In this document: piece after piece, positions 16,005 to 64,000 of the stretch
How the letters are laid out: every line of letters starts with the position of its first letter
How positions within the stretch are numbered: the first letter of the stretch is position 1
IMG/VR virus record: IMGVR_UViG_3300030104_006883
Coordinates: 64,001-128,000 of that record
Reading direction: 5' to 3' (one strand)
Length of the DNA: 64,000 nucleotides
Source of the DNA: a virus
Notes under the pieces: model-generated
What the model was told of the DNA's origin: nothing
Databases searched by the model: none
Seen by the model: only the letters and a program-made list of their open reading frames with translations
Translations under genes and position numbers: made by a program

Positions 16005-17798
16005 ATGGCAAAAAAAAATAATCCTATAAATTATACCAATAGAGACTTTGAATCGATAAAACAATCACTTGTAGAATATGCAAAAAGATATTATCCTACA
16101 AACTTCAAAGATTTTAACGAATCCTCATTTGGTTCTTTGATGCTTGACACCGTTGCATACGTAGGAGATATGCTCTCCTTTTATCTTGATTATCAAGTTA
16201 ACGAATCCTTCATAGATAGTGCTGTTGATTATGATAATGTCGTTAGGCTAGCAAGGCAGCTTGGATACAAACTCGATAAGGCTTATACGTCTTCCGGACT
16301 TGTCTCTTTTTTCTTAGTGGTCCCAGCAAAGACTGTTGGTGGAGGTCCCGACACCGACTACATGCCAAAAATATTAAAGGGCAGCACGGTTAGAAGCCAA
16401 AATGGTTCCTCTTTTACTTTAGCGGACGATATAGATTTTTCCGATGATAATAATTTAGTTTATCCGGCAACGATTGATTCGTCTACCGGAAGGCCGCTAA
16501 AGTATGCTGTGAAGGCGACTGGCAATGTGGTTTCGGGTGAACTGGCCGTTAAAAGAATCTCGGTGGGCAACTTTACTAGGTTTTTGAGATTGGCAGTAGA
16601 TGATGAAAACACGACAGAAATTATATCGGTCTATGATGCAAGCGGAAGACAATACTACGAAGTAGAGAGCCTAACGCAGGACTTTGTTTATAGGTCGGTT
16701 CCGAATCCGGGGTCGGACAGGCAACTTGTAAAAGAATTGATGAAGCCTGTGGTTGTGCCTAGAAGATTTGTTGTTGAGAAAGATGACGATAATACATTCC
16801 TACAATTTGGATTTGGATCGGAGTCCGAGCTTGATTCAGACGATGTAGTGGATCCTAGCAAGATTAATTTTAATTTGTACGGAAAAAAATATATTAGCGA
16901 CTCTACTTTTGATCCCACAAAGCTTTTATCGAATAGTAAGCTGGGCATAGCCCCTAGTGATACCACCCTGACAGTAACCTATAGAAAGAATAATACAACA
17001 GATTCAAATGCTCCGGTGGGCGGAATTGCAAGTCCGGGCAAGATTAACTATTTCTTTTTAGCAGAAGAAAGTTTAGATGCTTTTAAATTACAAGAAGTTA
17101 GAAGCAGCATCGAGATCTATAATGAAGAACCGATAAATGGAGACATAGAAAATCTATCTGCGGACGAGATTAGAGTTAGAGCTTTGGGCGCTCAAGCCTC
17201 TCAGGGGAGAGCAGTCACTAGACAGGATTACGTAAACCTTTGCTATAGAATGCCTGCCAAATTTGGAGCGATAAAGAGAGCCTCTATATATCAAGATCAA
17301 AACTCGGTAAAAAGAAATCTAAACTTATACACAATTAGTGAAGACTCCGACGGCAACCTTACGGAAACCAACTCCACAATAAAAGAAAATTTAAAAACTT
17401 GGATTCAGGGGTACAAGATGCTTAACGACACTATTGATATCTTAGACGCTTATGTTATCAATTTAGAGATTGATTTCGTTGTAACTGGAGATAGACAGTT
17501 CACGCCTGAGCAAACACTTACAGACTGCCTGAACGCTCTCAACGAAAAGTTTTCTGTAGTGCCGGAGATAGGCGAACCTTTTAAAGTTAGAGACATTTAC
17601 AAAGTTCTAAATAAGCTAGATAGTGTCTTAGATGTCGTAGACGTAAAGATTGGACAAAAGCTAGGCGGTCAATACTCTAGTAATGAATATAATATACCTA
17701 TCAACACCAGCGGCGATGGCTCACAGATCCTCATACCTGCCAACATGATATACGAAATCAAGTTCCCCAACACAAACATCAAAGGCGAGGTCAGATAA
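16005..17798 (+). CDS. Baseplate wedge protein gp6-like (baseplate J family)
   Basis: NYTNRDFESIKQSL, GSLMLDTVAYVGDMLSFYLDYQVNESFIDSA and RAVTRQDY are conserved T4 gp6-family motifs. Confidence 0.9.
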   Translation: MAKKNNPINYTNRDFESIKQSLVEYAKRYYPTNFKDFNESSFGSLMLDTVAYVGDMLSFYLDYQVNESFIDSAVDYDNVVRLARQLGYKLDKAYTSSGLVSFFLVVPAKTVGGGPDTDYMPKILKGSTVRSQNGSSFTLADDIDFSDDNNLVYPATIDSSTGRPLKYAVKATGNVVSGELAVKRISVGNFTRFLRLAVDDENTTEIISVYDASGRQYYEVESLTQDFVYRSVPNPGSDRQLVKELMKPVVVPRRFVVEKDDDNTFLQFGFGSESELDSDDVVDPSKINFNLYGKKYISDSTFDPTKLLSNSKLGIAPSDTTLTVTYRKNNTTDSNAPVGGIASPGKINYFFLAEESLDAFKLQEVRSSIEIYNEEPINGDIENLSADEIRVRALGAQASQGRAVTRQDYVNLCYRMPAKFGAIKRASIYQDQNSVKRNLNLYTISEDSDGNLTETNSTIKENLKTWIQGYKMLNDTIDILDAYVINLEIDFVVTGDRQFTPEQTLTDCLNALNEKFSVVPEIGEPFKVRDIYKVLNKLDSVLDVVDVKIGQKLGGQYSSNEYNIPINTSGDGSQILIPANMIYEIKFPNTNIKGEVR

Positions 17799-19426
17799 TG
17801 TCAATTAAAAGATATTTTGCTACAGCAGACAATACGATAACTAATGCCTTCAAGTCTAGTTTAACTACAAGGGGTACCGGATCGAACATGGGCGCTGCTG
17901 ATGTTTTAGAAGTATTTTCTATTTCTGGCCAAGCAAGTTCTGGATCAACTGAACTATCTAGAGTTTTGATACAATTCCCTATTTCTGGGTCAACGACTGG
18001 AGAAATAAAAGCAGACCGAACAGCAGGCACTATCCCTGCTAGTGGTAGTGTTAGATTTTATCTTAGAATGTTCAATGCAAAGCATAGTCAAACGCTTCCT
18101 AGAAATATGATTCTCAACGTACAGGCAGTTTCGCAGTCATGGAGCGAGGGAACTGGCCTAGATATGGAAAACTATACAGACAGGGGCGTTTCGAACTGGG
18201 TCTCCGGTAACATCTCTGGAAGCGTCGGTGCGCCTGCCTCTGGTAAAGGCGGCTGGGACGGGGCATGGGGGACTTCCAGTATGGACCAAACGACTGGGTT
18301 TGTCCCTGGAGGCACGTTCCACACGGCGGCGTATTCTGCCGGAACTGATGGAATGCCAATGTACACTGCAACCTTCACCAATGGTGATGAAGATATGGAA
18401 GTGGACGTGACTGCGGCAGTGGAAGAGTGGATTGCGGGTACATACTTAAACTATGGTTTTGGTGTGTATCTTACATCTTCACAAGAGGCATATTCGGTGG
18501 GGGACGGAACTAACGTTCCAAGAAATTTAGGCGGCTCGACTGACTCGTACTACACAAAGAAGTTCTTTTCTAGAACAAGCGATTTCTTTTTCAAGAGACC
18601 AGTACTAGAAGCCAGATGGGACTCCTCCGTTCAAGATGACAGAGGCCAGTTCTTTATGAGTAGTTCTTTAGCAACCGCGACAGACAATCTAAACACTCTC
18701 TTTTTGTACAACTACATAAAAGGGCAATTAAAGAATATACCGGAAGTTGGCACAACAGGATCAATCATGGTTGCACTGTACTCTGGTTCTGCTGATGATA
18801 CGGAGCCATCGGGCTCCAAGATGATTCTTAGCGCAGGCGGAAACGCAGGGGCAAGCCTCTTATACGCTACGGGAGGATATCACGACACGGGTATTTATAC
18901 GGCGTCTGTAGCCTTTACTGGGTCCTCAGCGTTGGAAACAATTTACGACGTCTGGACTTCCGGAACTTGGGATAATCACGAAGTAACGCAGTTCTTTACA
19001 GGCACGATAACTCCCGTGGGAATCACAGGGTCAATAAATTATCCAATTAGAGAATATGTGACAAACATAATCAATTTGAAGGCGGCATATACGGATAAAG
19101 AAAAGCCAAGACTTAGACTGTTCGTTCGAGACAAAAATTGGAATCCGAATATATACAGCCTGTCTTCTACCACGCCAAACACAGAGGTCATTGAAGAAGC
19201 ACACTATAAGATCGTTAGAGCAGTAGATGGTCTAGAGGTTCTTGCATATAACACTGGCAGCACCAAAGCAACCAAATTATCTTACGATTCTAATGGCAAC
19301 TACTTTGATCTAGATATGAGTATGTTAGATACAGATTATATGTATAAAATTTACTTTGCATATAATATCAATGGCGATTATCAAGAGCAACCGGAAGTTT
19401 TTAAGTTTAGAGTCGAAGAAAAATGA
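17798..19426 (+). CDS. Virion structural protein, Gly/Ser/Thr-rich beta protein (N-terminus resembles DNRLRE/CBM96-type modules)
   Basis: TAATG coupling to gp6; ADNTI...NMG...VLEV...SRVLIQFP pattern; about 10 [ST]GS motifs. Confidence 0.55.
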   Translation: MSIKRYFATADNTITNAFKSSLTTRGTGSNMGAADVLEVFSISGQASSGSTELSRVLIQFPISGSTTGEIKADRTAGTIPASGSVRFYLRMFNAKHSQTLPRNMILNVQAVSQSWSEGTGLDMENYTDRGVSNWVSGNISGSVGAPASGKGGWDGAWGTSSMDQTTGFVPGGTFHTAAYSAGTDGMPMYTATFTNGDEDMEVDVTAAVEEWIAGTYLNYGFGVYLTSSQEAYSVGDGTNVPRNLGGSTDSYYTKKFFSRTSDFFFKRPVLEARWDSSVQDDRGQFFMSSSLATATDNLNTLFLYNYIKGQLKNIPEVGTTGSIMVALYSGSADDTEPSGSKMILSAGGNAGASLLYATGGYHDTGIYTASVAFTGSSALETIYDVWTSGTWDNHEVTQFFTGTITPVGITGSINYPIREYVTNIINLKAAYTDKEKPRLRLFVRDKNWNPNIYSLSSTTPNTEVIEEAHYKIVRAVDGLEVLAYNTGSTKATKLSYDSNGNYFDLDMSMLDTDYMYKIYFAYNINGDYQEQPEVFKFRVEEK

Positions 19427-22400
19427 GTTTAAAAGATCTCTTTAAAAAAGAAAAATTTAGTCAAGTCTTGACTAAAAAAAGCAAAAAGGATTTGGAGCAA
19501 GAGGTAGAATCTTCTGCTTTTGTGCCAACTTATTTAAAAAAGTCTAATAGAGTTCTGCCTCAAGTGGACTACTCTGATCCTAAAAACTTTGCTAGATACG
19601 GCCTAGCGTCTCGATATTATAGGGATTCAATTGAGCGTATCTACAAAGAGTATCCCTATGATGGCTCATTAAGAGAAAAGATGGAGTGGGATGAAAGCTC
19701 TCTTTTAATTGATAAATATATTTTTGAAGAGCATTACCCTAGAACAAATGGATATATTAATTTTCTAGGATCTAGAGAAATGAGTACTGTAGCTGGTAAT
19801 TTTACTAGTTTTACTCACCCGTATGCTTATAACGATTACGCACAATATATCTTTTTAAAGGGAGGACCGCATCCTAGCAAACTTAGAGGCACAGAAACCC
19901 TAAGCGGAGAGCTTGTGCCAAGCTCCTCTATCAACTCTTTACCAAATTATTATGATTCTAACATTAATAGAACATCGAATCTTGAATTTAATGGAACCGA
20001 TGGAGTTACGGTAGAGTTCTGGCTTAGGAAAGATTCTTACCAAACGGCATCTGAATCTCCGACACAAACAGTTTTTGATCTTTGGAGTAGCGGCTCTTGG
20101 GGTGCTGATGTCGCAGGACAGCCTGGTTATGGACGTCTAAAGGTCGTCTCTTGTGTCGATCCTGTTGCATCTGGTTCTTCATTGTACATCTCTTTAATGT
20201 CCGGGTCAGGGCAGTATACCCAAGGAGTTTTCGACCCTCAACCTGCCACGATTGGCGGAGAAACACTAATATCAATAGGTACGGACGTTCCTGTCACAAG
20301 CTCAACATGGCACCATTATGCCCTTAGCTTCGCCAATACGGGGAGCAATATGAGAGCAAGATTATATGTGGATGGAGCCCTAAACCAAGAGATAGTAACA
20401 GGATCCTCTATTTCTTCAATAACGGGCACAATGGTGGCACAACTCGGCGCTCTAATTACTTCTCCTTCTGGATCTCATGCCGCCACACAGGGCTATGGAG
20501 CCCTAAGCGGGTCTTTAGATGAGTTTCGATTCTGGAGAAAAGAAAGAACTCCTGAACAGATTGGAAGATACTGGAAAAGACAGATTGGCGGCGGCACTAA
20601 CACGGACGATGTAAAATACTACTACAGTGGTTCCGTAGACGAAGGTAATGCTGTAGAGCTTGGGTTCTACTACAAGTTCAATGAAGGAATAACGCAAACA
20701 GCCAGTGTTGATTCAAACATTCTAGACTATTCCGGAAGAGTAACAAACGGTACTTGGACAGGATATAGCAACAGCAGCGCGCTATTAACGGATATGAGAT
20801 CAACAAATTCTGCAATTGTAGAGGCAAGCGCGTCAGCGGCAGAGTTTAAAGATCCGATAATTTACGAGAGACATCCAGATGTGCAGTCACTACTGGAAAC
20901 GAAAATAAAAGAAGGCGAACTACATGACCTTACTAATAACGCATCGATATTTAATTCATTCCCCTCTTGGATAAGGGAAGAGACAGAAGACAATCCGACA
21001 CTCGAACAATTATCTCAAATAATGGGCAGCTATTTTGATGAGCTACACATTATGATTGAAGATGTGAACAAAGTAAAGGATATCAGATATGTGTCTGGGT
21101 CTCTATCTGATGTTAATAAAGAATCTTCAATTGCTAAAAATCTCTTGTCAGGGGTCGGCTTTGACACGCCGGAGTTATTTGTTGATGCGGAGGTAATCGA
21201 AAAGTTTCTTCAAATGGGCGATGATAGAACCTATTCACAAAGCATAGATGATATTAAGAACCTCATATATAAAAACATTTATAACAATTTAACACACATA
21301 ATGAAATCTAAGGGGACTGTTAAATCTCTTAGAAATTTGATGCATTGCTTTGGTGTTAGTGAAGACTTAATAAAGATTAACACCTTTGCCGATAATATGA
21401 CTTTTGCTGTTAAAGACGAATATTATGATTCAACAATAAAAAAGACTTTCTTAGACTTTAGTTCTCTAGATGCGAGCAGTGCCGCTGTCTACCAGCAAAC
21501 TTCATCCTTGATCACGGATTCTACCGCGTATCTGTCGGCGTCTGGTTATCCCGCTGCACAGCAGGAATCGGATGGCTTTGGCTCTACATTTGAAAGCGAA
21601 GTGTTATTTCCATACCTACCGGATCAAGATACAGTAGAGTTTAAAGGCAACTATCCTTTAACATCTTCTATTTTTGGTGCACACTCCGCAAGACTGACTG
21701 CTCCGGCGGATACAACGTGGCAAGATGACAGCGGGGAAGATTACTTTTTCGAAGTACGCTCTGTAAAGAGCGTCAAAGACACAAGACACTCGTATTTCCA
21801 ACTTGCCAGCCCGCTGTTGTCTACTGGCTTTCTAGAGACTGAAGTTTTTTATGATGTATACGACAACTCGAATTGGACTTTTGCTGTTAAGGTTGCGCCT
21901 TCTAAGTACCCTCAATCTACACTAGACAATAGAACAGTGGGCACTGCCGACACTTATGTAGTTGAGTTTTATGGAGTCAACAACGTACAAGATATTATTA
22001 AAAATGAGTTTCATCATACGGAGACAATTAGTAATACGCTTGGAAAGAACTTTATGTCTTCGGCCAAAAGACTGTTTGCGGGAGCTAGTGTGGCCAACTT
22101 CACAGGCTCAGTCAACTTCTACTCAGATGTAAAAATTTCATCTGTCAAAGCATGGATGTCTCATCTTACTAACGAAGAAATTAAATCTCATGCAATAGAC
22201 GCTGGTAATTACGGAACTAGACAACCAGCGAACAACGCGTTTGTTTTCCAAACAGGGTCAACTTCTAACGACGGATCTACGAATGTTTTTATTCCAAAAA
22301 TAAAAACTCTTGCGCTTGATTGGGACTTCGGGCTTGTCACGGGCTCGGATGCCGCAGGAGCTTTTGCGGCATATGACATAACCTCCGGCTCCAGCGACCT

Positions 22401-25400
22401 TAGAAGAGAATACGGATGGCTTGGGAATGTTGTCAACTTACCAAATTCTGGAATTGGCAGAGGGTTCCCTGCGTCGACCGCTTCTTTTGTTTCTGTAGAA
22501 TACTTAGAGGATTCTAAAAAGCAGTTGCCAGAGATCCTGTATTCAGAAGACATGGTATCAATTTTATCTTTTGACGACGATAATCTTTATAGAGACCAAA
22601 AGCCGGTCGGATTTTTTACCTCTATAGAAAAAAACATGTACCAAGCTCTTTCTGAAGAGATTATGAACTTCTTTGCATCAATAAGAGATTATGGAGCACT
22701 AATTGGTCGAACTGAGGAAAGATACCGACAAGATTATAAGAGACTGTCGTTCCTGAAACAAATATTCTTTGAAAGACTTGGGAACACTCCGGACGTAGAC
22801 AGATTTGTTGAATACTTTAAATGGATAGACCAATCACTAGGCACAATGATAATGAATCTTGTTCCTGCATCTGCTAATATCAATAAGGGAATCAAGACGG
22901 TTATCGAAAGTCACGCTCTTGAAAGAAATAAGTACAGAAATAAATTTCCAACAATTGATTCTAAATTTGCTGAACCGGCATCATCGGGACAATTACAGCC
23001 AAACCTAGACACTACGAAGGTAAAGGTAAACTTAGCGATTCCAGACACGCTTGCTGGAAAATACCAAGATTTTATCGCAAAGCCAAATCCTTCTTTAGCA
23101 GGGCCTAAGCTCAATTCCCCACCGAGTACTGATCAAGATGTTCATATCTTATGGTGGAAGAACAAAGTCGACAAAACAAAGTTTGCGAAAACTGGCAACG
23201 CTGCACTAGATGTCATTAGACAGAAGTTATTTACGGTTTTTCAAAACAGTAACCAGGACTTACAAAACAAGCCATTTGTTTTTAGCACGAGTGTGAAAGC
23301 AAAAGAAATCGCTGGCGGTGCCAAGATGCCAGCGAACAAAAAAGGAATGTCTATAGCTTCAAAGATTTTATCTTTCGCGTCGAATAAGCAATTTGTAATT
23401 AATAATTCTAACGTGTCGGATCCGACAAAGACCTATATAGAAGAAATTATTCCAATAGAATTATTAACCAAGAGAAAGATAGTTGAGGTTAATATTGACA
23501 ACGAGCCAGATGCTTATCTTGTCAGCGGCAGCGACTCTGTTTTACCATTTGCTTTTTATAGTGCGAGCCATGAATATGACAGTGGAGCTTCGCTAGGCGG
23601 CTATTTGGCCTCTTTGGGCGTTTCTTTGAGTAATACGCAGATAAGTTTTGGCAATGATTTTTCAAATAATGAATTCGAAACCCCGCTGCAAGGGCCGTTC
23701 ACGGAAAGATTTGTAGGAGGGTATCAATATAGAAATGTCGCTCCTAATAAATTAGACGAAGCCGGGAATTTTAATACGGCGTACAATAGACCGGAAGGCT
23801 ATAATATAGTCCTTGCTTCAAATGAAATCACCGTTGTTCCCGTTGACAGTATTAATACAAATTTTGCTAGAGGTACTAGAATAAGACTACCTGGCGTTAA
23901 GAGGCCTGTCAACATCACAAACAGACCGTTTTATGCAACTAGTGGCTCTGTTATAAGTGGTAATTTAAATTTCACAAACCCAACAAGAACAGTTGGCAAT
24001 TTTGAAAGAAACTATGAATTAGTAATGACTACGGGCAGAGACACTAACAACCTATGGTTTAAGTCTGGCTCCACAGGAGCAGGCGGCGCTAGCAACCAGT
24101 ACGCTGAAGTTCTTACTTTAACTGGTAATTTGAACTTTGCTCTGCCGGATAGAGCCACTGGATCTAATAAGACTGTCATAGCAGAAAGATTCTCCGCACC
24201 AGGCAGTAAAGAAGTGTTGACAAGAGGGTTTTTAGACCCAGCGTCAGAGACGTACTCAGTTTATAACCAGTTGAATTATAGAAACTCGGTTGTCAGAACT
24301 AGTTTAAATGTTAGTGGAACTTTACATTCATTAGCATATGGTATACAAACTGGCAGCTTTGCCATTGGAGACGCGTATTCTTCTCTTGTTATGGCATCGT
24401 CTCACAAAGTAAATAGAAATGCTAGAAGAACAGTTTTTGTTACTGGAACAAGTTATTTTGCGCCAGTAATTTCAGTGGTAGTATCTGGCTCTAGATTTGA
24501 CAATGATAATGTAACGCATCAGATACCGCAGAGCGATAGAAATTATAATTGGATTACAGCGTCGATGCTTGATATAAACGGTGCTCCATATGGATTTGCT
24601 AACGCTGCTGGTTTTGTATCAAGTGCTGCTGGCGAGGTGTCTGAGTTTAAATTCTTAAGCGCAAGTCAAACATCAGTTAATAGTCATGTTGTAGATTTTG
24701 TTGGATTAAATACACTTATAAACGCACCATTACTAACTGGAACAAACGCTGTGAGTACGGCGTCCTTAAATACTTCTATCGCTTCATTAAGCTCGGCGGA
24801 TCTTTTAAATGCTCTACTTCTTCATCAGAACGGACCTTATGGGTTTGTTAGTTGGAAACAAATCAATAATTCAACCAACCCGCTGGTAAGGAACATGGTA
24901 AAGAATAATAGAATTTCTACCTTTACAGCGATGAATGATTTCTTCACTAAATCAAAATATAAGTGGTCGGGCGCTTCTGGAAAAGAAAAAGTATCCCACA
25001 ATAGCGCGACTAATGTGCGACGATTGTCTTCTTTTACAGAGCCGCCTGTTATTACTAGCTTCAAGCCAATTACACACAAGGTTGCTACAAAAGACTACGA
25101 TGGGAATAAGGCTAATTTTGATATCAAACATAGCTACGCCAATAATCTATCCAAATTCGCTTCGCCTGACTTAAACAACTCACTGGGCGCAGAAAGTAAT
25201 AAGCCAACACAGGCTTATGATAAATTATATAAAATATATACAAATAAAGAACTTGGAGAGGATAATCCGATTTCTGATTTGTTATCGCTTGAATATAAAG
25301 AAAATGTATATCCTCGATCTGTCAACGCCTATCTCGGCAAGTCTAGAGGGCGACAAAACTATACAGAGGTGCCGGGAACAGGACAGAATGGTTTCGATCG

Positions 25401-37635: not shown

Positions 37636-38751
37636 ATGGGAACATCTTTTAAAAATATTACAGCGGACGACGTAACTACTACGAGAACGCTATTACATGA
37701 AAACATACCGCTCACTGGTACGCTGGTCTCCGGCACATACGGTATTAATGGCAGTCCAACAGCATTTCCAAATGAAGCAAATATTAAAAATTATTCTCAT
37801 GGCATGTTCCAGTCAGTGTACGATTACCCGTACTTAAGCTCTTCTGCGAATCACATTTTTGATATCACAATTGGGTACTCGTCGGGTTCGGCAATAGCGG
37901 CGTCTACTAACTCCCAGCATGAAAAGAAGCGTAATATTTATAACCAGATGGCACAAGTGCTTATGGGCAATGATGTAACTGGAGCTATCCAACTTTTCGA
38001 CGAAGACGGAGATATCACTGGGGGCGGAACAAAGCTCACAAGTTGTATTTTCTTAAACTTCTCCAGGTTGCTTACAAAAGATGAAATTAAAAAGGGTGAG
38101 ACAACGTTACAGTTCTTGACTGGTGGTCATCTTGTAACAGGTGCCTTGAGCGCCGGTAGTCTTAGAACTCTTGTAGATGCAAGCGCTAGTACAGACTACA
38201 GAATAAACTCCCCCGCAGGAGAGTATGGAATCTTATATGAGCAGCACACAACTAATCCATATGGATTGATTTACTATCAAGCAGGCATTGCAGTTTTAAC
38301 TTCTTCTGTGTTTAGCAATCTAAGCGCGTCAGCCGAAAGTGCTACTGCATACAATGCCTCGCAGGCGAGCACATCCCCTATTAACTCTGACTTAAATGCG
38401 GCAGTACTGCATGTAACGGGCGTGTTTACCGGATCTACCATTAGGCAGGCGGCAGATCAGATTAGACATAGAACTCATAATATATCGTTCAACAATACGA
38501 CAGAACTCAATTCTACAATTTATTTCTGTAGAGCGAATCATAATGAGTTTAACTATAGTTCTAACCCAACTTATCTGAGCGCTAGCAAGGTATTTGTTAA
38601 GGAAAATAATTTAGACGTTCCGGTGGCCTATGCCACTACTGTTGGCCTGTATTCGGCTGACAACGAATTGATGGCTGTCGCTAAGCTGTCCGAACCTCTT
38701 AAGAAGACTCCAAATAACGAGATAACGTTAAAAGTCCGCTTAGATTACTAA
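37636..38751 (+). CDS. Virion structural protein with tail-collar (DUF3751-like) C-terminal motif
   Basis: C-terminus YATTVGLYSADNELMAVAKLSEPLKK..TLKVRLDY resembles the i.EvGLfd.dg.LiAva.l motif; paralogue of the next gene. Confidence 0.6.
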   Translation: MGTSFKNITADDVTTTRTLLHENIPLTGTLVSGTYGINGSPTAFPNEANIKNYSHGMFQSVYDYPYLSSSANHIFDITIGYSSGSAIAASTNSQHEKKRNIYNQMAQVLMGNDVTGAIQLFDEDGDITGGGTKLTSCIFLNFSRLLTKDEIKKGETTLQFLTGGHLVTGALSAGSLRTLVDASASTDYRINSPAGEYGILYEQHTTNPYGLIYYQAGIAVLTSSVFSNLSASAESATAYNASQASTSPINSDLNAAVLHVTGVFTGSTIRQAADQIRHRTHNISFNNTTELNSTIYFCRANHNEFNYSSNPTYLSASKVFVKENNLDVPVAYATTVGLYSADNELMAVAKLSEPLKKTPNNEITLKVRLDY

Positions 38752-41600: not shown

Positions 41601-41611
41601 GAGACCTCTCA

Positions 41612-41998: not shown

Positions 41999-42003
41999 TT
42001 TTC

Positions 42004-42032
42004 TTGACATTAGAACCTTGGTGCTGTATACT
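42004..42032 (+). promoter_or_regulatory. Consensus sigma70-type promoter TTGACA-N17-TATACT
   Basis: TTGACA 42004-42009, 17-nt spacer, TATACT 42027-42032, GGAGG 42050-42054, ATG 42059. Confidence 0.8.
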
Positions 42033-42058
42033 CTAGCCAGCACAATCATGGAGGTTGT

Positions 42059-54999: not shown

Positions 55000-55545
55000 A
55001 TGGCTTATGATAACATGTTCAAACGCTACCAGGCGGGAATTCAAAATGTTGGATCTTTCCAGGTAAGCGGCCACCCCTTTATTACTGGTGGGGTTTTCTT
55101 ACCCGTATCTCATGGATCTATAAAGGGCTCCGGAATGGGCGTCGATGCCGATGATCATCCTCAAGCGGTTGGTACCTTCGACACAATCGAATTTCCAAAG
55201 GTAACTAAGACTATAACCATCATTAACACGAACTTTTACACCGGAAGTCAGTACAACTCGACTTTGGGCGACGGCGTGATCCATGTTTACTTTGGTGATG
55301 GCGGAGAAGCGCACGCAGCGGCGGGAAATCAGAACAGTGCTATTGCACAAAACCACTACATTACATTGCCAAATACTAATGATTCTATTACTTTAGATAT
55401 CAAAACTAATAAAGTGCATATAGCTAACGGAGCCGCAGCCAATAGCGCGAGCTTCCAGTTATTAGCCGAGTTGACTCTTATTGAGCCTGGTGAAATGTAT
55501 GAACTCACTGGTTCTGGTATTAGTGAATTGACTGGTAGTAGCTAA
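55000..55545 (+). CDS. Hypothetical beta-rich protein, probably virion-associated
   Basis: 181 aa with AGGAG Shine-Dalgarno; carries TGS motifs. Confidence 0.55.
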   Translation: MAYDNMFKRYQAGIQNVGSFQVSGHPFITGGVFLPVSHGSIKGSGMGVDADDHPQAVGTFDTIEFPKVTKTITIINTNFYTGSQYNSTLGDGVIHVYFGDGGEAHAAAGNQNSAIAQNHYITLPNTNDSITLDIKTNKVHIANGAAANSASFQLLAELTLIEPGEMYELTGSGISELTGSS

Positions 55546-56871: not shown

Positions 56872-58662
56872 ATGTCTGTTTTAGAAACATTAACTGAGGG
56901 CATTGTTAACCGTGACGTCCAGAAGGAAGGTGCTGCACTACTTGATAAGTGGTCAAACACCGGGCTTCTAGAGGGAATTGGTAACGATATTGCCCGTAAC
57001 AATATGGCACGTCTGCTTGAAAACCAGGCTGCTCAATTACTAAAAGAGTCGTCTGCAATGAGCGCAGGCGATGTCGAGGGTTTTGCTGCTGTAGCATTCC
57101 CGATCGTTCGTCGTGTATTCGGCGGACTTATTGCTAATGATCTCGTGTCGGTTCAGCCAATGAGCCTTCCTTCGGGACTCATTTTCTTCATGGATTTCAC
57201 CTACTCTGACGATACAACACAGAGACTTTCTTACGAGCAGGGCGATTCCATTTATGGTGGTGGCGTTGTTGGTCAGGCGTTGACTGGCGGTGTTAACCTC
57301 ACTGGTGAGAGTGGCGAAGATAGTTTTTACAACTTGAATAACGGCTTCTCTTCTCCAACAGGTTCCACCTTGTTTGCAGGAGCAGGCTACGTTGTAGTTG
57401 CGTCTGGTACTGTTGGAAATCCCGCTGGTACCGTTCCGCACCCACTTTCGCTGGCAGACCAGGCTAAGTTGGACAAGATGGCAAGCCATGACCCGGACCT
57501 CAGTGGTTCTGTGGTTGTTGTTTGTGAGATCACCGGAGCCACCGGACTTGCACAGCTTAACGTGGAAAATCTAATCGCCTTAAACATTACACCTGGCGGT
57601 GGACAGTTGATTCGACGCACAACGCAGCTTTCTTCGGGTTCTGTCGGAGATTACGCACCGGGCAATGCAGGATGGAAGGCGACGTTCCTTGTTGAGGCGA
57701 CTGGCTCGCAGACCATGCACGGCACCACCGCTGCTCAGATTAACAACCTAGTCGGAAATGTGACAGGCTCCCTGGCCGACGCTGCTACGTTCCCGATTAC
57801 CGACAACTTCGGTGGTACACCTACTGCTGATGGGCTCGCTCTCGGTGCTGTTGTAGGCACTACTACATGGGGACTAGAGAATGAGGTTGGCATTCCTGAG
57901 ATCGACATCAAGGTTGATTCCGTAAGTGTCACGGCGATGACCAAGAAGCTCAAGGCCAAGTGGACCCCAGAGCTAGGTCAGGACCTCAATGCTTATCACA
58001 ACCTTGATGCAGAGGTTGAGCTTACTTCGGTTCTCTCCGAGCATATTGCTCTAGAGATCGATCGTGAGATCCTTGAGGATCTTGTTAAGGGCTCGACGGC
58101 TGGTACACTGTACTGGTCACGCCGTCCTGGTAAGTTCGTTAACCGCGAGACAGGCGCAGGAATTAGTTCTTCAGCAAATGAGGAGCTTCTCGGTGCAGAC
58201 TTCACGGGTACGGTATCTGAGTGGTACGAGACACTCATTGAGACAATCAATGACGTCTCCGCTAGAATCCACAGAAAGACTCTCCGTGGTGGCGCGAACT
58301 TCGTGGTGGTATCACCTGAAGTCGCTAACCTCATGGAGTTCACTTCTGGATTCCGCGCTTCTGTTACTCATGATGAGGACAGAGGAACCGCAGGTGCTGT
58401 AAGAGTAGGTAGCCTTAGCAAGAAGTTCGATGTCTATGTCGATCCTTACTTCCCACGTAACGTGGTTCTAGTAGGTCGCAAGGGATCAAGCTTCCTTGAG
58501 AGTGGCTATGTATATGCCCCGTATGTACCTCTACAGGTCACACCGACCATCTTTGGTACGGAAGATTTCGTACCACGTAAGGGTGTCATGACCCGTTACG
58601 CCAAGAAGATGGTGCGTCCTGATATGTACGGTCTTGTCATCGTAGAAGACCTAATCGGGTAA
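56872..58662 (+). CDS. Major capsid protein (gp23-like)
   Basis: PIVRRVFGGLIANDLVSVQPMSLPSGLIF, TKKLKAKWTPELGQDLNAYH.LDAEVEL, YAPYVPLQ, PRKGVMTRYA. Confidence 0.97.
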   Translation: MSVLETLTEGIVNRDVQKEGAALLDKWSNTGLLEGIGNDIARNNMARLLENQAAQLLKESSAMSAGDVEGFAAVAFPIVRRVFGGLIANDLVSVQPMSLPSGLIFFMDFTYSDDTTQRLSYEQGDSIYGGGVVGQALTGGVNLTGESGEDSFYNLNNGFSSPTGSTLFAGAGYVVVASGTVGNPAGTVPHPLSLADQAKLDKMASHDPDLSGSVVVVCEITGATGLAQLNVENLIALNITPGGGQLIRRTTQLSSGSVGDYAPGNAGWKATFLVEATGSQTMHGTTAAQINNLVGNVTGSLADAATFPITDNFGGTPTADGLALGAVVGTTTWGLENEVGIPEIDIKVDSVSVTAMTKKLKAKWTPELGQDLNAYHNLDAEVELTSVLSEHIALEIDREILEDLVKGSTAGTLYWSRRPGKFVNRETGAGISSSANEELLGADFTGTVSEWYETLIETINDVSARIHRKTLRGGANFVVVSPEVANLMEFTSGFRASVTHDEDRGTAGAVRVGSLSKKFDVYVDPYFPRNVVLVGRKGSSFLESGYVYAPYVPLQVTPTIFGTEDFVPRKGVMTRYAKKMVRPDMYGLVIVEDLIG

Positions 58663-58684
58663 TTTTAGAGCTACTATAGCTTAG

Positions 58685-58717
58685 AAAAAGGTCTCCACGA
58701 AAGTGGAGGCCTTTTTT
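58685..58717 (+). terminator. Rho-independent terminator after the major capsid gene
   Basis: AAAAA-GGTCTCCAC-GAAA-GTGGAGGCC-TTTTTT: 9-bp stem with one G-U pair, GNRA loop, U-tract. Confidence 0.9.
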
Positions 58718-58747
58718 GTTTCTAAGTCCGAAATGCACATATGGACA

Positions 58748-58755
58748 CTATTTAC
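58748..58755 (+). promoter_or_regulatory. Putative late-promoter motif CTATTTAC
   Basis: Immediately after the terminator, followed by AGGAG and ATG 58779. Confidence 0.6.
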
Positions 58756-58778
58756 TCATAGCGCAGGAGACAACATGC

Positions 58779-60110
58779 ATGGCAATGCCCACCCTATCAC
58801 CAAAACAAAATCCAAGCCCTGTGGTTTTGACCTCCACTGGCTCAACTGCTGAGTCGAGTGAAAACGAGTGGGACAATTCCGCTGGCAATTCTACAAACTA
58901 CGCGTTTGGTATTTATTTAACCAACCAATACGGTGCTTCCAATAACGATTTTATTTCCGGCGCATCGGATCAAGTAGCCTACACTTATAAGAAGCTAGGC
59001 GGAGATGTATTAGATATTGAGTTAACTGTTGGAAATATTTATACTGCTTATGAAGAGGCAGTTTTAGAGTATTCTTATATTGTCAACATACACCAAGCCA
59101 AAAATGTCTTGGGCGACTTGATGGGCAACAGAACTGGGTCGTTTGACCAAGATGGCGAAATGAAAACTGGAGAACTCTCTTCGAGTCTTGGAGGGGACAG
59201 AGTAGAGCTAAAGATGCCAAGATTTACCTTTGAGTATTCTAGGAGAGCTTCTGATGGAGTTTCTGAAGCTGTTGGTATCGGAGGGGCTTTGCCGGAATAT
59301 TCCGCGTCGTTCGATTCGGTTAATGATAAACAAGATTATGATTTACAATCAATAATTTACTCTGCCTCAATTGATGGAACCACCGCTGGGAGCCTATTTA
59401 CAGGATCCATAGGCAAAAATAAAATTACAATTAAAAAAGTATTCTATAAAACTCCCCACGCTATGTGGAGGTTCTATGGCTATTATGGTGGTTTGAACGC
59501 AGTAGGAAACATGTCAACGTATGGAATGTTTTCTGACGATTCAACGTTTGAAGTAATTCCTGCATGGCAAAATAAAGCACAAGCAATGGCCTATGAAGAT
59601 GCCATTTATACTAGAAATTCTCATTATTCTTATGAAATAAAAAACAATACTTTAAGACTTTTCCCTTCACCAACGTCGATGTCCCCGGACAAGTTCTGGG
59701 TCCAGTTCACAGTAAAAACAGATGCTTGGGTAGAAGAGTCTGACAAGGAAGGCGGCGCTGATGGTGTTAATAATATGAACACGCTGCCATTTGCTAATAT
59801 ACCATATGCAAGCATTAACAGCATCGGTAAGCAATGGATTAGAAGATTTGCATTAGCGACTGCAAAAGAAATGCTAGCACAGGTGAGAGGAAAGTTTGGT
59901 AATACGATACCAATTCCAGGGGACAATGTTAACCTAAACGCAACTGAGCTTTTGTCCCAAGCAAAGGATGAGCAACAGGCACTGAGAGAAGAACTGAAGA
60001 CAGTTCTTGATGAGCTAACTTATGCGAAGCTTTCCGAGAGAGACGCCACTATACAGGGGAATGTCAACAACACTATGAAGGTGGTGCCGTCTGGCATTTA
60101 TACAGGGTAG
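58779..60110 (+). CDS. Neck protein (gp13-like head-tail adaptor)
   Basis: YKKLGGDVLDIEL...AYEEAV and WIRRFALATAKEMLAQVRGKF..IPIPG..VNLN match gp13 patterns; start moved from 58716 to ATG 58779. Confidence 0.8.
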   Translation: MAMPTLSPKQNPSPVVLTSTGSTAESSENEWDNSAGNSTNYAFGIYLTNQYGASNNDFISGASDQVAYTYKKLGGDVLDIELTVGNIYTAYEEAVLEYSYIVNIHQAKNVLGDLMGNRTGSFDQDGEMKTGELSSSLGGDRVELKMPRFTFEYSRRASDGVSEAVGIGGALPEYSASFDSVNDKQDYDLQSIIYSASIDGTTAGSLFTGSIGKNKITIKKVFYKTPHAMWRFYGYYGGLNAVGNMSTYGMFSDDSTFEVIPAWQNKAQAMAYEDAIYTRNSHYSYEIKNNTLRLFPSPTSMSPDKFWVQFTVKTDAWVEESDKEGGADGVNNMNTLPFANIPYASINSIGKQWIRRFALATAKEMLAQVRGKFGNTIPIPGDNVNLNATELLSQAKDEQQALREELKTVLDELTYAKLSERDATIQGNVNNTMKVVPSGIYTG

Positions 60111-60120
60111 GGGGAGTTAG

Positions 60121-61495: not shown

Positions 61496-61527
61496 CCCCA
61501 ATTTTATTCTTTTCGTCGCTCCATTTA

Positions 61528-61535
61528 CTATTTAA
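61528..61535 (+). promoter_or_regulatory. Putative late-promoter motif CTATTTAA
   Basis: Intergenic, upstream of sheath gene. Confidence 0.55.
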
Positions 61536-61573
61536 TAGAGAATAACCATTTTATTTCATGGGAGAACATTAAC

Positions 61574-64000
61574 ATGTCGGTTAAGAAGTTTAAATTTGTT
61601 TCACCTGGAGTTTTCATCAATGAGATCGATAACTCCCAAAGACCAAACGAGCCAACAGGAAGAGGCCCACTTATCATCGGTAGAACCGAAAGAGGCCCAT
61701 CAATGGTGCCGTATCAAGTAAATTCTTTTGCAGAATTTGTAACTGTATTCGGCAATCCAATCTCTGGCAAAACAAACACAGATAGTTGGAGAGATGGCAA
61801 TTACGGCGCTCCAACATACGCTGCATATGCGGCACAAGCTTGGTTGACAAATAATTCCCCCGTGACAATAGTCAGGCTTCTTGGTGATGAGAATTCCAAA
61901 GGCACTGGAACCGGAGACGCATTGGCAGGGTGGAACACAGCGAACGAAATTAAGGCCGCTGGAGCTTCTAACGTTATCGCAGGCGGCGGAGCCTATGGCC
62001 TTTGGCTTGTTGATAGCGGTTCCAATATCGAGGATGGCACAGGCGGGTCCTCGAACTTCATGTTCGGCGCGGGCGTTACTGGAACACTAGGGGCGATTTT
62101 TTATACCAACACCGGTTGCCCACAGCTAAGCGGGTCGACCGCTGGATACAATATAGCTCCATCTGATGGCATACCTGATGTAACAGGCTCTGCAATTTGG
62201 GTCAAGTCTACAGCCGATAAGACCTTTAAGCTTGTTATGATGGATGGATCTACGGATGTGGCGGCTGCGGCTACTGAAACCGTTACATTTAATTTCGATA
62301 GAACTTCAAGCAAGTATATTAGAAAGGTTTTAAATACAAATCCGGTATTGACAAACTCCGATGTTTCTTCAGACACGAAGAACTTTTGGCTTGGTGAGAC
62401 TTTCGAAAGAGAAGTATACAATAGATGCTCTGGCTCCACACAATGGGGAGTTATTTTGCCAATGGCCCAATTCGGAACAGCCAGTAACCAGTGGCAGGAG
62501 CATAACTATGGAATGAGAAGATCTAAGACTGGCTGGTTTATTTCCCAGGACGTGAGAACGACTCCGGGGTCCGCTGTGGAAACTAGCAATGTCTTGAGCC
62601 CCGTGTATAGTCCAGAAAGCATGCAAAAGCTTTTCAAAATTCATTCATTGGGGTGGGGCGAGTGGAACCAGAACAATCTTAAGATCTCTATCGAGAATGT
62701 GTCGGCACCTACCAATAATTCAGACCCTTATGGTCACTTTAGTGTGAGAGTTAGAAAGATAGAAGACAATGATGGTGCTTTGAAGACTGTCGAGCTATAC
62801 GACAACTGCAATCTTAATCCTAATTCTGAAAACTACATCGCCAAGATGATCGGCGATAGGTACATCGAGTGGGATGAAGACACAAAGCGATACACAGAGT
62901 ATGGGAATTATGATAATAATTCGCAATTTATCAGAGTCGAAATGAATACTGATGTTGACGACGGAACAACGGACGCCTCGTATCTACCGTTTGGTGTTTA
63001 TGGGCACCCAAGGTTTGCACCTTGGCGGTTTGTGTCTGGAACGACAGGCCCTATTAAGTTAGCCTCTGCGGCGACCTCTGGATCTGTTGACTATGCCAAC
63101 ACATATATCTCATCCTTTGTAGGCGGAGTAACTTCGTTCATCCCAGGAGGTCAGTATCGCAATGATGCAAACAATTCGGATGCTTGGATTGGCGTTGCTC
63201 CGTCAGCTTCTAATAACGTTGCACAAGCAGGGGCGCACGCTCCCTTTGTATTCCCCGCTGTCCCACTAAGGTCTGGGTCGTTAGATGGAAACATCCAGAG
63301 CCCAAGACAGGCATACTTCGGTGCAGATGTGCTTAGAAAAGAGGGTGGAGTCTTTTATCTTGACTTTGAAAAATCAACAAGAGATATTCTTAGGGCGCTC
63401 CCTGACAGCCATAAAGACAGTGACACTGTGGCAAACCAGCTTGAGTGGTCTTGGGTATTCTCCCTGGATGATGTAAGTGGTACTTTTGGCAATAGTGTAT
63501 CCTACTCCTCTGGTAGCCGCGCGACAGGGCGCTCAATAACTGCGGGCTCTGGTTCGTGGCAAGATGTTTTGACCGCAGGGTTCAACAAGTTCACTACTGT
63601 GCTCTATGGAGGTTTTGACGGTCTTAGAATTGATGAATCGGACCCGTTTAGAAACACGTTTACTACTGACGGGACGGAAACAACTAATTATGCTTACAAC
63701 TCTATTAAGAGAGCTATTGACTCCGCGAAAGACCCAGAGGTAGTCGATTACAACATCGCACTTGCTCCTGGCGTCACTACTAGCGGATTGACTGACCACT
63801 TAATCAATATTTGCGAAGATCGAGGCGACGCACTAGCAATCGTAGATTTGGCAGGAGGTTATGTACCTAGTTCCGAGAATACCACGGCACAGTCAGGAAG
63901 ATTGGGCAGCGTCAATACAACAATTACCAATCTAAATAACCGTGGCATTAACTCTAGTTACGGGTGTGCATACTACCCCTGGGTACAGGCTAGGGACACG
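61574..64000 (+). CDS. Tail sheath protein (gp18-like), 3'-truncated by window end
   Basis: Manual translation MSVKKFKFVSPGVFINEIDNS...IIGRTERGP..VP..V.SFAEFVTVFGNP and ...GINSSYGCAYYPWVQARDT; absent from ORF track because there is no stop in the window. Confidence 0.93.
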   Translation, partial: MSVKKFKFVSPGVFINEIDNSQRPNEPTGRGPLIIGRTERGPSMVPYQVNSFAEFVTVFGNPISGKTNTDSWRDGNYGAPTYAAYAAQAWLTNNSPVTIVRLLGDENSKGTGTGDALAGWNTANEIKAAGASNVIAGGGAYGLWLVDSGSNIEDGTGGSSNFMFGAGVTGTLGAIFYTNTGCPQLSGSTAGYNIAPSDGIPDVTGSAIWVKSTADKTFKLVMMDGSTDVAAAATETVTFNFDRTSSKYIRKVLNTNPVLTNSDVSSDTKNFWLGETFEREVYNRCSGSTQWGVILPMAQFGTASNQWQEHNYGMRRSKTGWFISQDVRTTPGSAVETSNVLSPVYSPESMQKLFKIHSLGWGEWNQNNLKISIENVSAPTNNSDPYGHFSVRVRKIEDNDGALKTVELYDNCNLNPNSENYIAKMIGDRYIEWDEDTKRYTEYGNYDNNSQFIRVEMNTDVDDGTTDASYLPFGVYGHPRFAPWRFVSGTTGPIKLASAATSGSVDYANTYISSFVGGVTSFIPGGQYRNDANNSDAWIGVAPSASNNVAQAGAHAPFVFPAVPLRSGSLDGNIQSPRQAYFGADVLRKEGGVFYLDFEKSTRDILRALPDSHKDSDTVANQLEWSWVFSLDDVSGTFGNSVSYSSGSRATGRSITAGSGSWQDVLTAGFNKFTTVLYGGFDGLRIDESDPFRNTFTTDGTETTNYAYNSIKRAIDSAKDPEVVDYNIALAPGVTTSGLTDHLINICEDRGDALAIVDLAGGYVPSSENTTAQSGRLGSVNTTITNLNNRGINSSYGCAYYPWVQARDT

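What the first reader, a model, noticed from the sequence alone, without database searches (positions are those of the whole stretch)
17798..64000. [S/T]-G-S / [S/T]-A-S motif selectively enriched in a subset of virion proteins: candidate virion O-glycosylation system
Manual counts of [ST]GS: about 10 in the 542-aa protein (17798), over 20 plus about 12 [ST]AS in the 2896-aa protein, 9 plus 5 [ST]AS in the 445-aa protein (38791), 5 in the capsid (all within one insertion), 8 in the partial sheath, and several in gp13 and 55000. I found none or one in the 2947-, 1011- and 1211-aa proteins, gp6, TerL, primase and the nuclease fusion. The motifs are dispersed rather than tandem and usually follow a hydrophobic residue (VTGS, FTGS, YSGS, LSAS, ITAS). 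Established: AAH/TibC enzymes transfer heptose from ADP-heptose to Ser-rich motifs, and some actinobacteriophages have glycosylated virions. Inference: the motif is a sequon on exposed loops, and the sugar cluster at 1-2200 supplies donors for a glycan coat over capsid, neck, sheath and baseplate.
Basis: partly seen in the sequence, partly recalled or inferred. Interest (0 to 1): 0.82.

Follow-up and report, generated by a model that had tools for sequence, protein, structure and literature searches.

The report
Ser/Thr-Gly-Ser tag on phage surface
The outward-facing particle proteins of this uncultured 186-kb marine T4-like phage carry the tripeptide Ser/Thr-Gly-Ser about six times too often, and the excess occurs only in phages that keep one conserved pair of sugar-transferase genes, so it is probably where a phage-made sugar coat attaches, though no chemistry shows this yet.

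Summary
[ST]GS occurs 75 times against 12.4 expected from composition in ten virion proteins; the rest of the genome has 30 against 27.7. The motif is sharply defined: only S or T at position 1, G (less often A) at 2, only S at 3. It is selected at protein level, not DNA level.

SGS and TGS rank 1 and 2 of about 5,500 tripeptides genome-wide. In capsid and sheath the sites lie only in the variable regions between the blocks conserved with T4, which in T4 hold the external domains. Density is conserved among relatives while about 70% of positions turn over.

All 11 phages tested that carry the adjacent GT4 glycosyltransferase pair heading a 26-kb exporter-free sugar island show the excess. None of 7 phages lacking the second GT4 does, including LR756508, which nests inside the clade.

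The best reading is a sequon for phage-encoded cytoplasmic O-glycosylation of the virion surface (about 0.55). No modification is shown. This scan had already noted the same tag on at least eight other phage genomes. I found no paper describing it.

The parts
1..2200 (+). Last four genes of a 26-kb sugar island that starts 24 kb upstream of the window: cytidylyltransferase-like (142-579), HAD-like (563-886), cupin (867-1238) and SDR epimerase/dehydratase (1238-2200).
   Evidence: Pfam. The upstream island (genome 40.5-64 kb) has two GT4s, GT2, GT11, a GT1-like gene, WecB, two DegT, GNAT, methyltransferases, Ugd, RmlC, five SDRs and a PfkB kinase. It has no multi-pass membrane protein.
17798..19426 (+). 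542-aa baseplate-region protein next to the gp6-like wedge gene; 11 [ST]GS.
   Evidence: 11 against 1.19 expected, p = 0.002. Orthologues have 7/0.8, 6/1.3 and 4/0.4.
19423..28113 (+). 2896-aa giant baseplate or fibre protein with a LamG/ConA-like domain; 23 [ST]GS and 13 [ST]AS.
   Evidence: Orthologues have 19/5.8, 23/4.2 and 11/1.4.
37636..38751 (+). 371-aa paralogue of the 445-aa protein; 2 [ST]GS and 3 [ST]AS.
   Evidence: The family is expanded and enriched in Mel-JY01 and immuto.
38791..40128 (+). 445-aa virion protein of unknown fold; 9 [ST]GS and 5 [ST]AS at strand ends and loops.
   Evidence: 120 homologues average 5.3 against 0.77 expected, with sites in 67 alignment columns. AF2 secondary-structure mapping.
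55000..55545 (+). 181-aa head-module protein; 3 [ST]GS and 1 [ST]AS, including the C-terminal TGS.
   Evidence: 3 against 0.31. The G002 orthologue has 3/0.4.
56872..58662 (+). T4 gp23-type major capsid protein.
   Evidence: PHROG 138. Residues 63-180 (weakly) and 343-577 align to T4 gp23.
57358..57771 (+). Lineage-specific stretch of the capsid protein (residues 163-298, first part of the segment 181-342 that does not align to gp23) holding all five [ST]GS sites.
58716..60110 (+). 464-aa head-tail adaptor (gp13-like); 3 [ST]GS and 2 [ST]AS.
   Evidence: PHROG 211.
61574..64000 (+). Tail sheath (1008 aa, running past the window end); 8 [ST]GS and 2 [ST]AS, all in the variable region at residues 60-713.
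   Evidence: Across the clade, 66 of 68 sheath sites lie in the variable region.
6719..15562 (+). 2947-aa protein with no motif: an internal contrast within the same gene module.
   Evidence: 0 against 1.46 expected. No family match.

Best explanation
[ST]-[GA]-S is an acceptor tag (sequon) for O-glycosylation of the virion surface by phage enzymes acting in the host cytoplasm.

The proposed mechanism has three steps:
1. Two adjacent, phage-specific GT4 (retaining GT-B) glycosyltransferases head a hypervariable sugar island that lacks any exporter. They sit at genome 40,559-43,059, which is 21-23 kb upstream of the window. They prime a Ser/Thr of the tag where it is displayed in loops of outward-facing domains.
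2. The targets are the capsid insertion, the outer sheath domains, peripheral baseplate proteins, neck proteins and S74-type tail fibres.
3. The variable downstream transferases (GT2, GT11, GT1-like) extend the chain with the island's unusual sugars, giving a strain-variable glycan coat.

Shown here: the motif excess, its specificity, its location in lineage-variable regions, its turnover, and its co-variation with the GT4 pair.

Inferred: that the tag is modified at all, that the modification is a sugar, which residue accepts it, and which GT4 primes.
For: 1. Size and specificity. The ten proteins hold 75 sites against 12.4 expected, and the rest of the genome holds 30 against 27.7. Single-residue specificity is seen at all three positions. 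SGS and TGS rank 1 and 2 of about 5,500 tripeptides. Selection acts on the protein, not the DNA.

2. At least eight sequence-unrelated protein families are enriched. Only 371/445 and 377/800 share homology.

3. Location. All 5 capsid sites lie at residues 163-298, outside the well-aligned gp23 blocks. 66 of 68 sheath sites across the clade lie in the variable region, which is 61% of the length (P = 1.5e-12, not corrected for relatedness). Immuto and Mel-JY01 sheath sites sit at different, non-alignable positions.

4. Turnover. In orthologues at about 45% identity, density stays well above expectation (2.8-8.8x in the 542-, 2896- and 445-aa families) while only 29% of sites keep their position. 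Permuted control tripeptides keep 7-11%. The 445-aa family uses 67 alignment columns.

5. Co-variation.
- 11 of 11 phages with both GT4s have genome-wide observed/expected of 2.2-3.2, with SGS or TGS among the top tripeptides. They are this phage, seven IMG/VR relatives, Flavobacterium phage immuto, Microcystis phage Mel-JY01 and Rhodothermus phage RM378.
- 0 of 7 phages without GT4#2 do (0.66-1.62).
- LR756508 has the same structural module and a GT4#1-like gene but no GT4#2. It nests inside the clade in TerL, capsid and portal trees and lacks the excess.
- 17 proteins are shared with immuto and Mel-JY01 but absent from four control T4-likes. Of these, the only enzymes also found in RM378 are the two GT4s.

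6. The island has no polytopic membrane protein, so it acts on a soluble target.

7. Both GT4s keep the E-x7-E motif. The GT4#2 model (pLDDT 90.6) is closest to the chlorovirus NY-2A putative glycosyltransferase in PDB 3OY2, named B736L (E = 1e-17). The protein O-GlcNAc transferases GtfA and SdgB are also among the hits.
Against: - No chemical or structural evidence of any modification exists.
- The GT4 association rests on only two phylogenetically independent contrasts: the origin of the clade and the LR756508 loss. For LR756508 only 140 kb of 484 kb was scored for the motif.
- RM378 has the genome-wide excess, but its sheath and capsid are not enriched, and its GT4#2 is very divergent (24% identity, E = 1e-5).
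- Mel-JY01's GT4#1 is split into two ORFs, yet the motif excess persists.
- Several large proteins of the tail and fibre module (2947, 602, 1013 and 1211 aa) carry no motif, although some are probably exposed.
- Gly and Ser favour loops, so the loop location does not separate a sequon from a turn motif. No coordinates were available to measure solvent exposure.
- The island could instead modify DNA or a small molecule.
Confidence: 0.55

Rival explanations
1. The tag is read by something other than a glycosyltransferase. It could be the site of another post-translational modification (phosphorylation, acylation, ADP-ribosylation, phosphoglycerol or similar). It could also be a docking element for a decoration protein or chaperone. 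In that case the GT4 pair serves a different target such as DNA or a small molecule.
For: - The motif properties require only a sequence-specific reader, not a sugar.
- The island begins with a cytidylyltransferase-like gene and has a GNAT and methyltransferases.
- Phage glycosyltransferases are also known to hypermodify DNA (Pyle et al., cited in PMC12619734).
Against: - No kinase, ADP-ribosyltransferase or other candidate enzyme shares the phyletic pattern. Only the two GT4s do.
- LR756508 loses GT4#2 and the motif excess together.
Confidence: 0.2
2. The tripeptide is an unmodified structural habit of this clade. It would be a favoured flexible turn or solubility element in outward-facing, fast-evolving loops. 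Its link to the GT4 pair would then reflect shared ancestry only.
For: - Sites lie at strand ends and in loops, half of them in low-confidence segments.
- Three sites in the 445-aa family are almost invariant: 112, 109 and 96 of 120 sequences.
- The association has only two independent contrasts.
Against: - Control T4-like phages with equally Ser/Gly/Thr-rich fibres show no such excess. Observed/expected is 0.66-1.5 and SGS ranks between 69 and 3405.
- A generic turn would not demand exactly S at +2 and S/T at 0 while rejecting SGT, AGS and NGS.
- Sites are gained independently in non-homologous domains.
- LR756508 shares the structural module without the excess.
Confidence: 0.2
3. The excess is an artefact of amino-acid composition, low-complexity repeats or a DNA-level motif.
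For: The enriched proteins are rich in Ser, Thr and Gly. One control outlier, a P-SSM2 597-aa protein, is explained by collagen-like and HSFSGSGS repeats.
Against: - Per-protein shuffles give p = 0.002-0.012.
- Permuted tripeptides of the same residues are not enriched.
- Sites are dispersed with diverse flanks.
- The 75 sites use 63 distinct 9-mers, and the other reading frames show no excess.
Confidence: 0.02

Closest known systems
Mycobacteriophage virion glycosylation (Freeman et al. 2023, Cell Host Microbe; as summarised in PMC12619734)
   Same: Phage-encoded glycosyltransferases would decorate the phage's own structural proteins in the cytoplasm. The glycosyltransferase genes lie beside the virion module.
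   Different: There the glycans sit at the C-termini of the capsid and tail-tube subunits of siphoviruses. Here a dispersed internal tripeptide marks capsid insertion, sheath, baseplate, neck and fibres of a myovirus, and the tube has no site. The enzymes here are a GT4 pair plus a 26-kb island. That paper was not held in the library, so its details are second-hand.
GtfA/GtfB priming of serine-rich repeat adhesins (review PMC6973325)
   Same: A conserved two-protein GT-B pair initiates cytosolic O-glycosylation of Ser/Thr, and a variable number of further glycosyltransferases extend the glycan. GtfA is among the fold matches of GT4#2. The immuto 1053-aa fibre has near-tandem [ST]AS[YF] repeats.
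   Different: No Pfam family beyond generic GT4-type ones matched either phage GT4, so the DUF1975 domain that defines GtfA/GtfB was not detected. Both phage proteins keep catalytic E-x7-E. The sites are dispersed rather than long tandem repeats. There is no SecA2/Y2 export.
Putative glycosyltransferase of chlorovirus NY-2A (PDB 3OY2; named B736L)
   Same: It is the best structural match of GT4#2 (E = 1e-17, TM 0.65/0.70) and a weak sequence match of GT4#1. It is a virus-encoded soluble GT4.
   Different: Sequence identity is only 16%. Its acceptor is not known to me, and chlorovirus capsid glycans are N-linked (from memory).
AAH/AIDA-I and TibC/TibA autotransporter heptosyltransferases
   Same: They perform cytoplasmic O-modification of Ser in beta-rich surface proteins. 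Heptose-nucleotide pathway genes are present here (PfkB kinase, nucleotidyltransferase, HAD, SDR).
   Different: No GT9-type enzyme is in the genome. The motif excess does not follow the heptose genes, which P-SSM2 has without the motif.
Exporter-free sugar islands of large aquatic T4-like phages (P-SSM2-type 'LPS' clusters)
   Same: A large block of soluble sugar-nucleotide and transferase genes lies next to the virion genes, and its target is unknown.
   Different: This work adds a candidate acceptor motif and a candidate priming pair. P-SSM2 itself lacks both.

Membership tests
Phage virion glycosylation of the mycobacteriophage type | Phage-encoded glycosyltransferases near the structural genes | tested here: met
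   Five glycosyltransferases lie in a 26-kb island that ends 4.5 kb before the first large structural gene.
Phage virion glycosylation of the mycobacteriophage type | Glycans on the C-terminal ends of the capsid and tail-tube subunits | tested here: not met
   Capsid sites are internal (residues 163-298). The tube protein has none (0/0.4).
Phage virion glycosylation of the mycobacteriophage type | Glycan demonstrated chemically on virion proteins | not testable with these tools
   This needs mass spectrometry or glycan staining of virions.
BAHT (AAH/TibC) heptosyltransferase systems | GT9-like heptosyltransferase | tested here: not met
   PF01075 is absent from the whole 185,927-bp genome, while the control genomes were positive.
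BAHT (AAH/TibC) heptosyltransferase systems | Nucleotide-heptose donor pathway | tested here: inconclusive
   A PfkB kinase fragment, a cytidylyltransferase-like gene, a HAD and an SDR are present. No SIS isomerase was looked for.
GtfA/GtfB SRRP priming system | Conserved adjacent pair of GT-B proteins followed by variable extending glycosyltransferases | tested here: met
   The pair is conserved in 11 phages, and the genes that follow it differ between this phage and immuto. The fold is GT4 GT-B.
GtfA/GtfB SRRP priming system | DUF1975 acceptor-binding domain in both partners | tested here: not met
   Neither protein matches any Pfam family beyond generic GT4-type ones at E <= 0.001. GtfA aligns at only TM 0.47.
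GtfA/GtfB SRRP priming system | Long tandem Ser-rich repeat acceptor exported by SecA2/Y2 | tested here: not met
   The sites are dispersed. The island has no membrane or secretion genes.
Bacteroidota general O-glycosylation | D-[ST]-[AILVMT] sequon enriched on targets | tested here: not met
   0.67x in the enriched set.
N-linked glycosylation | N-x-[ST] sequon enriched on targets | tested here: not met
   1.08x.

The most novel reading that the evidence does not exclude
A very abundant clade of aquatic myoviruses coats the whole outer face of its particle with a self-made, strain-variable glycan. The clade holds at least 600 IMG/VR loci and 867 protein clusters of the marker GT4. Head insertion, sheath, baseplate rim, neck and fibres would all be coated. 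Attachment would use a three-residue O-glycosylation sequon, [ST]-[GA]-S, read by a phage-specific GT4 pair: a viral counterpart of N-x-S/T. Earlier notes of this scan report other tripeptide tags in other phage clades, so different clades may use different sequons.
Probability: 0.45. Interest if true: 0.85.

Novelty: new variant of a known kind. Interest (0 to 1): 0.72.

Why it matters
Large aquatic phages commonly carry sugar-building islands without export genes, and their target has stayed unknown. This work supplies three things that turn that question into a direct experiment:
- a defined acceptor motif;
- a list of target proteins;
- a candidate priming enzyme pair.

Cultured relatives exist for the test: Flavobacterium phage immuto, Microcystis phage Mel-JY01 and Rhodothermus phage RM378.

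If confirmed, it would be the first short O-glycosylation sequon described for a virus of bacteria. It would show that glycan shielding of virions is widespread in the ocean. That bears on host recognition, grazing, particle stickiness and phage stability. It would also give a compact tag-plus-enzyme pair for glyco-engineering.

Tried and rejected
- **Composition, low complexity and DNA-level causes.** Rejected.
- **One shared repeated domain.** Rejected: only two pairs of the ten enriched proteins are homologous, and there are no internal repeats.
- **AAH/TibC-type enzyme.** Absent.
- **Host sequons.** D[ST][AILVMT] and N-x-[ST] are not enriched. The other scan tags DS[DE] and LS[AGS] are not clearly enriched here.
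- **Fold of the 445-aa protein.** The AF2 model is moderate (pLDDT 70), and Foldseek against the PDB found nothing below E = 0.07, so its role in the particle stays unknown.
- **Independent lineages with GT4 homologues.**
  - Synechococcus phages S-EIVl and S-CBS4 have only weak GT4#1-like genes (24-26% identity), no GT4#2 and no clear motif excess. They are uninformative rather than contrary.
- **Literature.** No paper mentions Mel-JY01. No paper combines phage, O-glycosylation and sequon. Freeman et al. 2023 is not held. The held text of the Jabs preprint is an abstract only.
- **Avoidance test.** I tested whether non-target proteins avoid the motif, as might be expected with a promiscuous cytoplasmic enzyme. 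They do not: the rest of the genome has 30 sites against 27.7 expected.

Full report
**Setting**

The window is bases 64,001-128,000 of a 185,927-bp IMG/VR virus record judged complete. It is a myovirus with a T4 gp23-type capsid protein, TerL, portal, sheath and gp6-like wedge. Its nearest named relatives by capsid protein are Microcystis phage Mel-JY01, Flavobacterium phage immuto, Rhodothermus phage RM378 and the 484-kb metagenomic phage LR756508.

**Observation**

I translated every long ORF and compared [ST]GS counts with per-protein composition and with 500 shuffles per protein.

| Protein | [ST]GS observed / expected | [ST]AS observed / expected |
|---|---|---|
| 542 aa (17798) | 11 / 1.19 | 1 / 0.90 |
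| 2896 aa (19423) | 23 / 3.72 | 13 / 3.70 |
| 445 aa (38791) | 9 / 1.36 | 5 / 0.86 |
| 181 aa (55000) | 3 / 0.31 | 1 / 0.22 |
| capsid (56872) | 5 / 0.81 | 0 / 0.62 |
| 464-aa adaptor (58716) | 3 / 0.59 | 2 / 0.56 |
| sheath (61574) | 8 / 1.5 | 2 / 1.2 |

- The 2947-, 597-, 602-, 1013- and 1211-aa proteins, the SbcCD fusion, TerL, the portal and the primase-like protein have zero or one site.
- Over the whole genome there are 105 sites against 40 expected. Two further enriched proteins lie outside the window. Both end in the S74 chaperone domain typical of tail fibres.
- Ten proteins hold 75 sites against 12.4 expected. All other proteins hold 30 against 27.7.

*Specificity.*
- X-G-S is raised only for X = S (40/6.8) or T (35/5.7).
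- [ST]-G-X is clearly raised only for X = S (T 1.7x, A 1.6x).
- [ST]-X-S is raised for X = G (6x), A (2.8x) and weakly S (1.6x).
- Without choosing proteins or motifs in advance, SGS and TGS rank first and second of about 5,500 tripeptides genome-wide.

*Not a DNA signal.* The 75 sites use 63 distinct 9-mers and all four Gly and six Ser codons near genomic usage. The other five reading frames of the same genes show no excess.

*Not one repeated domain.* Among the ten proteins only 371/445 and 377/800 are homologous.

**Where the sites are**

- *Capsid.* The protein aligns to T4 gp23 at residues 63-180 (weakly) and 343-577. All five sites fall at 163-298, almost entirely in the stretch between those blocks. 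In T4 that region holds the external insertion domain (from memory).
- *Sheath.* Residues 8-64 and 714-1007 align to gp18-type cores (gp18 358-652), and all ten [ST][GA]S sites lie between them. Over ten clade sheaths, 66 of 68 sites lie in that variable region, which is 61% of the length (P = 1.5e-12, not corrected for relatedness).
- *Independent gains.* Immuto and Mel-JY01 sheaths carry their sites at different, non-alignable positions.
- *445-aa protein.* The AF2 model (pLDDT 70) places its 14 sites at strand ends, hairpin turns and loops, about half in low-confidence segments. This fits exposure, but Gly and Ser favour loops anyway. No coordinates were available to compute accessibility.

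**Evolution**

- 120 homologues of the 445-aa protein, mostly about 40% identical to it, average 5.3 [ST]GS against 0.77 expected (6.9x), and [ST]AS is 4.3x.
- Three sites in that family are nearly invariant, three occur in 45-60% of sequences, and 67 alignment columns carry a site in at least one sequence.
- Between this phage and orthologues at about 45% identity, only 29% of [ST]GS sites are kept in place. Permuted tripeptides of the same residues keep 7-11%.
- The orthologues of the 542-, 2896- and 445-aa proteins nevertheless remain enriched (2.8-8.8x).
- Conserved density with moving positions is the pattern expected of a sequon under selection for number and exposure. It is not the pattern expected of a fixed structural element.
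- The same families are enriched across the clade (sheath, giant protein, 542, 371/445). The same families stay empty (gp6-like, portal, TerL, tube, 411-aa and 313-aa proteins).

**The enzymes**

The four sugar genes at 1-2200 are the tail of a 26-kb island.

- It starts at genome 40,559, just after a PD-(D/E)XK nuclease gene (39,770), with two adjacent GT4 genes.
- It continues with GT2, WecB, GNAT, methyltransferases, two DegT aminotransferases, GT11, Ugd, a GT1-like gene, RmlC, several SDRs, a TPP enzyme, PhyH and a PfkB kinase.
- No protein in it has more than one hydrophobic segment, so there is no flippase, polymerase or priming phosphoglycosyl transferase.
- No GT9/BAHT-type enzyme exists anywhere in the genome.
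- Both GT4s keep the E-x7-E signature.
- GT4#2 folds confidently (pLDDT 90.6). Its best solved match is the putative glycosyltransferase of chlorovirus NY-2A (PDB 3OY2, named B736L; E = 1e-17). BshA follows, and the protein O-GlcNAc transferases GtfA and SdgB are also listed.

**Co-variation**

I fetched 17 further phage genomes, called ORFs uniformly and repeated the unbiased test.

| Group | Phages | Genome-wide [ST]GS observed/expected | Tripeptide ranks |
|---|---|---|---|
| Both GT4s (11) | this phage; IMG/VR G001, G002, G003, G006, G007, G009, G010; immuto; Mel-JY01; RM378 | 2.2-3.2 | SGS or TGS among the top four in every genome |
| No GT4#2 (7) | T4, DSL-LC03, S-CBS4, P-SSM2, LR756508, ACG-2014b, S-EIVl | 0.66, 0.86, 1.24, 1.31, 1.40, 1.48, 1.62 | best rank 28 |

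Sources.

- The single-residue specificity profile recurs in six of the carriers profiled and in none of five controls.
- The only significant control protein, in P-SSM2, is a collagen-like low-complexity protein.
- P-SSM2 has 41-62% identical homologues of the window's genes at 142, 563 and 867. The motif therefore follows the GT4 pair, not those sugar genes.
- LR756508 shares the structural module, including two sheath copies with 0 sites against 1.0 expected.
- LR756508 also has a GT4#1-like gene but no GT4#2, and only its 100-240 kb region was scored for the motif.
- LR756508 nests inside the clade in TerL, capsid and portal trees (clade support 100/100). This gives a second independent contrast.
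- 17 proteins are shared with immuto and Mel-JY01 but absent from four control T4-likes. Among them, the only enzymes also present in RM378 are the two GT4s.

*Scale of the family.*
- GT4#2 has at least 600 loci in IMG/VR.
- It has 867 clusters at E <= 1e-30 in the 1.8-billion-protein library.
- Among 50,697 GenBank phage records, only the four immuto records and Mel-JY01 match at the 1e-3 limit.

**Interpretation**

The evidence fits a phage-encoded, cytoplasmic O-glycosylation of outward-facing virion surfaces. [ST]-[GA]-S would be the acceptor tag, the GT4 pair would prime it, and the variable island would supply and add further sugars.

The architecture resembles GtfA/GtfB systems, which have a conserved priming pair plus variable extenders (PMC6973325). 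The DUF1975 domain that defines that family was not detected, so this is an analogy and not membership. It is a variant of the virion glycosylation known in mycobacteriophages, where glycans sit at the C-termini of capsid and tube proteins.

**Weak points**

- There is no chemistry.
- There are only two independent evolutionary contrasts.
- RM378's sheath and capsid are not enriched, and its GT4#2 is highly divergent.
- Mel-JY01's GT4#1 is split into two ORFs.
- Four large tail-module proteins carry no sites.
- An unmodified turn motif and a different modification each keep about 0.2 probability.

**Earlier scan notes**

Other sessions reported the same [ST]-G-S tag, tied to a GT4 pair, on at least eight other phage genomes. 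They also described this genome's island as an exporter-free glycan factory of unknown target. I treated these as leads only and re-derived every claim above on this genome. My literature searches found no paper that describes the motif.

**Verdict**

It is a new variant of a known kind, and it is directly testable with cultured relatives.

Noticed in passing
Flavobacterium phage immuto NC_055915.1 97658-100819 (L041/L042): A 1053-aa protein (17% Ser, 13% Ala, 12% Gly, 11% Thr) has 26 [ST]GS and 27 [ST]AS sites. Many sit in near-tandem [ST]AS[YF] units such as 'ATSASYATTASYSNTTTSASF'. It looks like a serine-rich-repeat-style fibre and would be a prime target for glycoproteomics.
   Followed up: partly
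Microcystis phage Mel-JY01 PP395634.1 83441-84930 (L050): The GT4#1 homologue is split into two ORFs of 190 and 302 aa. This could be a frameshift, a sequencing error or a real split, yet the motif excess persists in that phage.
   Followed up: no
Proteins P0121-P0124, P0145, P0158, P0191 and P0207-P0210: Many GT4#2 family members are fused to extra C-terminal sequence, giving lengths of 666-705 aa or 1050-1080 aa. One 3153-aa protein holds five matched stretches. The added domains were not examined.
   Followed up: no
Prochlorococcus phage P-SSM2 NC_006883.2 238199-240000 (L119): It has 41-62% identical homologues of the window's nucleotidyltransferase, HAD and cupin genes (window 142-1238). 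These form a mobile three-gene sugar cassette shared with a cyanophage that lacks the GT4 pair.
   Followed up: partly
window 6719-15562: A 2947-aa ORF just upstream of the gp25/gp6-like genes has no Pfam or PHROG match and no [ST]GS site. Only the IMG/VR relative G002 has a detectable homologue among the seven genomes compared.
   Followed up: no
window 40659-45211: A DnaG-like primase (313 aa) and a fused metallophosphoesterase-SbcC nuclease (1050 aa) sit between the tail/baseplate genes and the terminase. This order is conserved in G002, G003, Mel-JY01 and LR756508.
   Followed up: no
LR756508.1, about 145763-149923 (L123): The portal homologue is 1386 aa, roughly twice the usual length, which suggests a fusion.
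   Followed up: no
Rhodothermus phage RM378 NC_004735.1 25085-25387 and 66276-67547: In RM378 the significant [ST]GS excess sits in a 100-aa and a 423-aa protein rather than in sheath or capsid. Their roles were not determined.
   Followed up: no
genome 35524-36312 (L002:524-1312), upstream of the window: A stand-alone 262-aa LamG/ConA-like lectin-fold protein is encoded 4 kb before the glycosyltransferase island. Next to it is a PhoH-PIN fusion.
   Followed up: no
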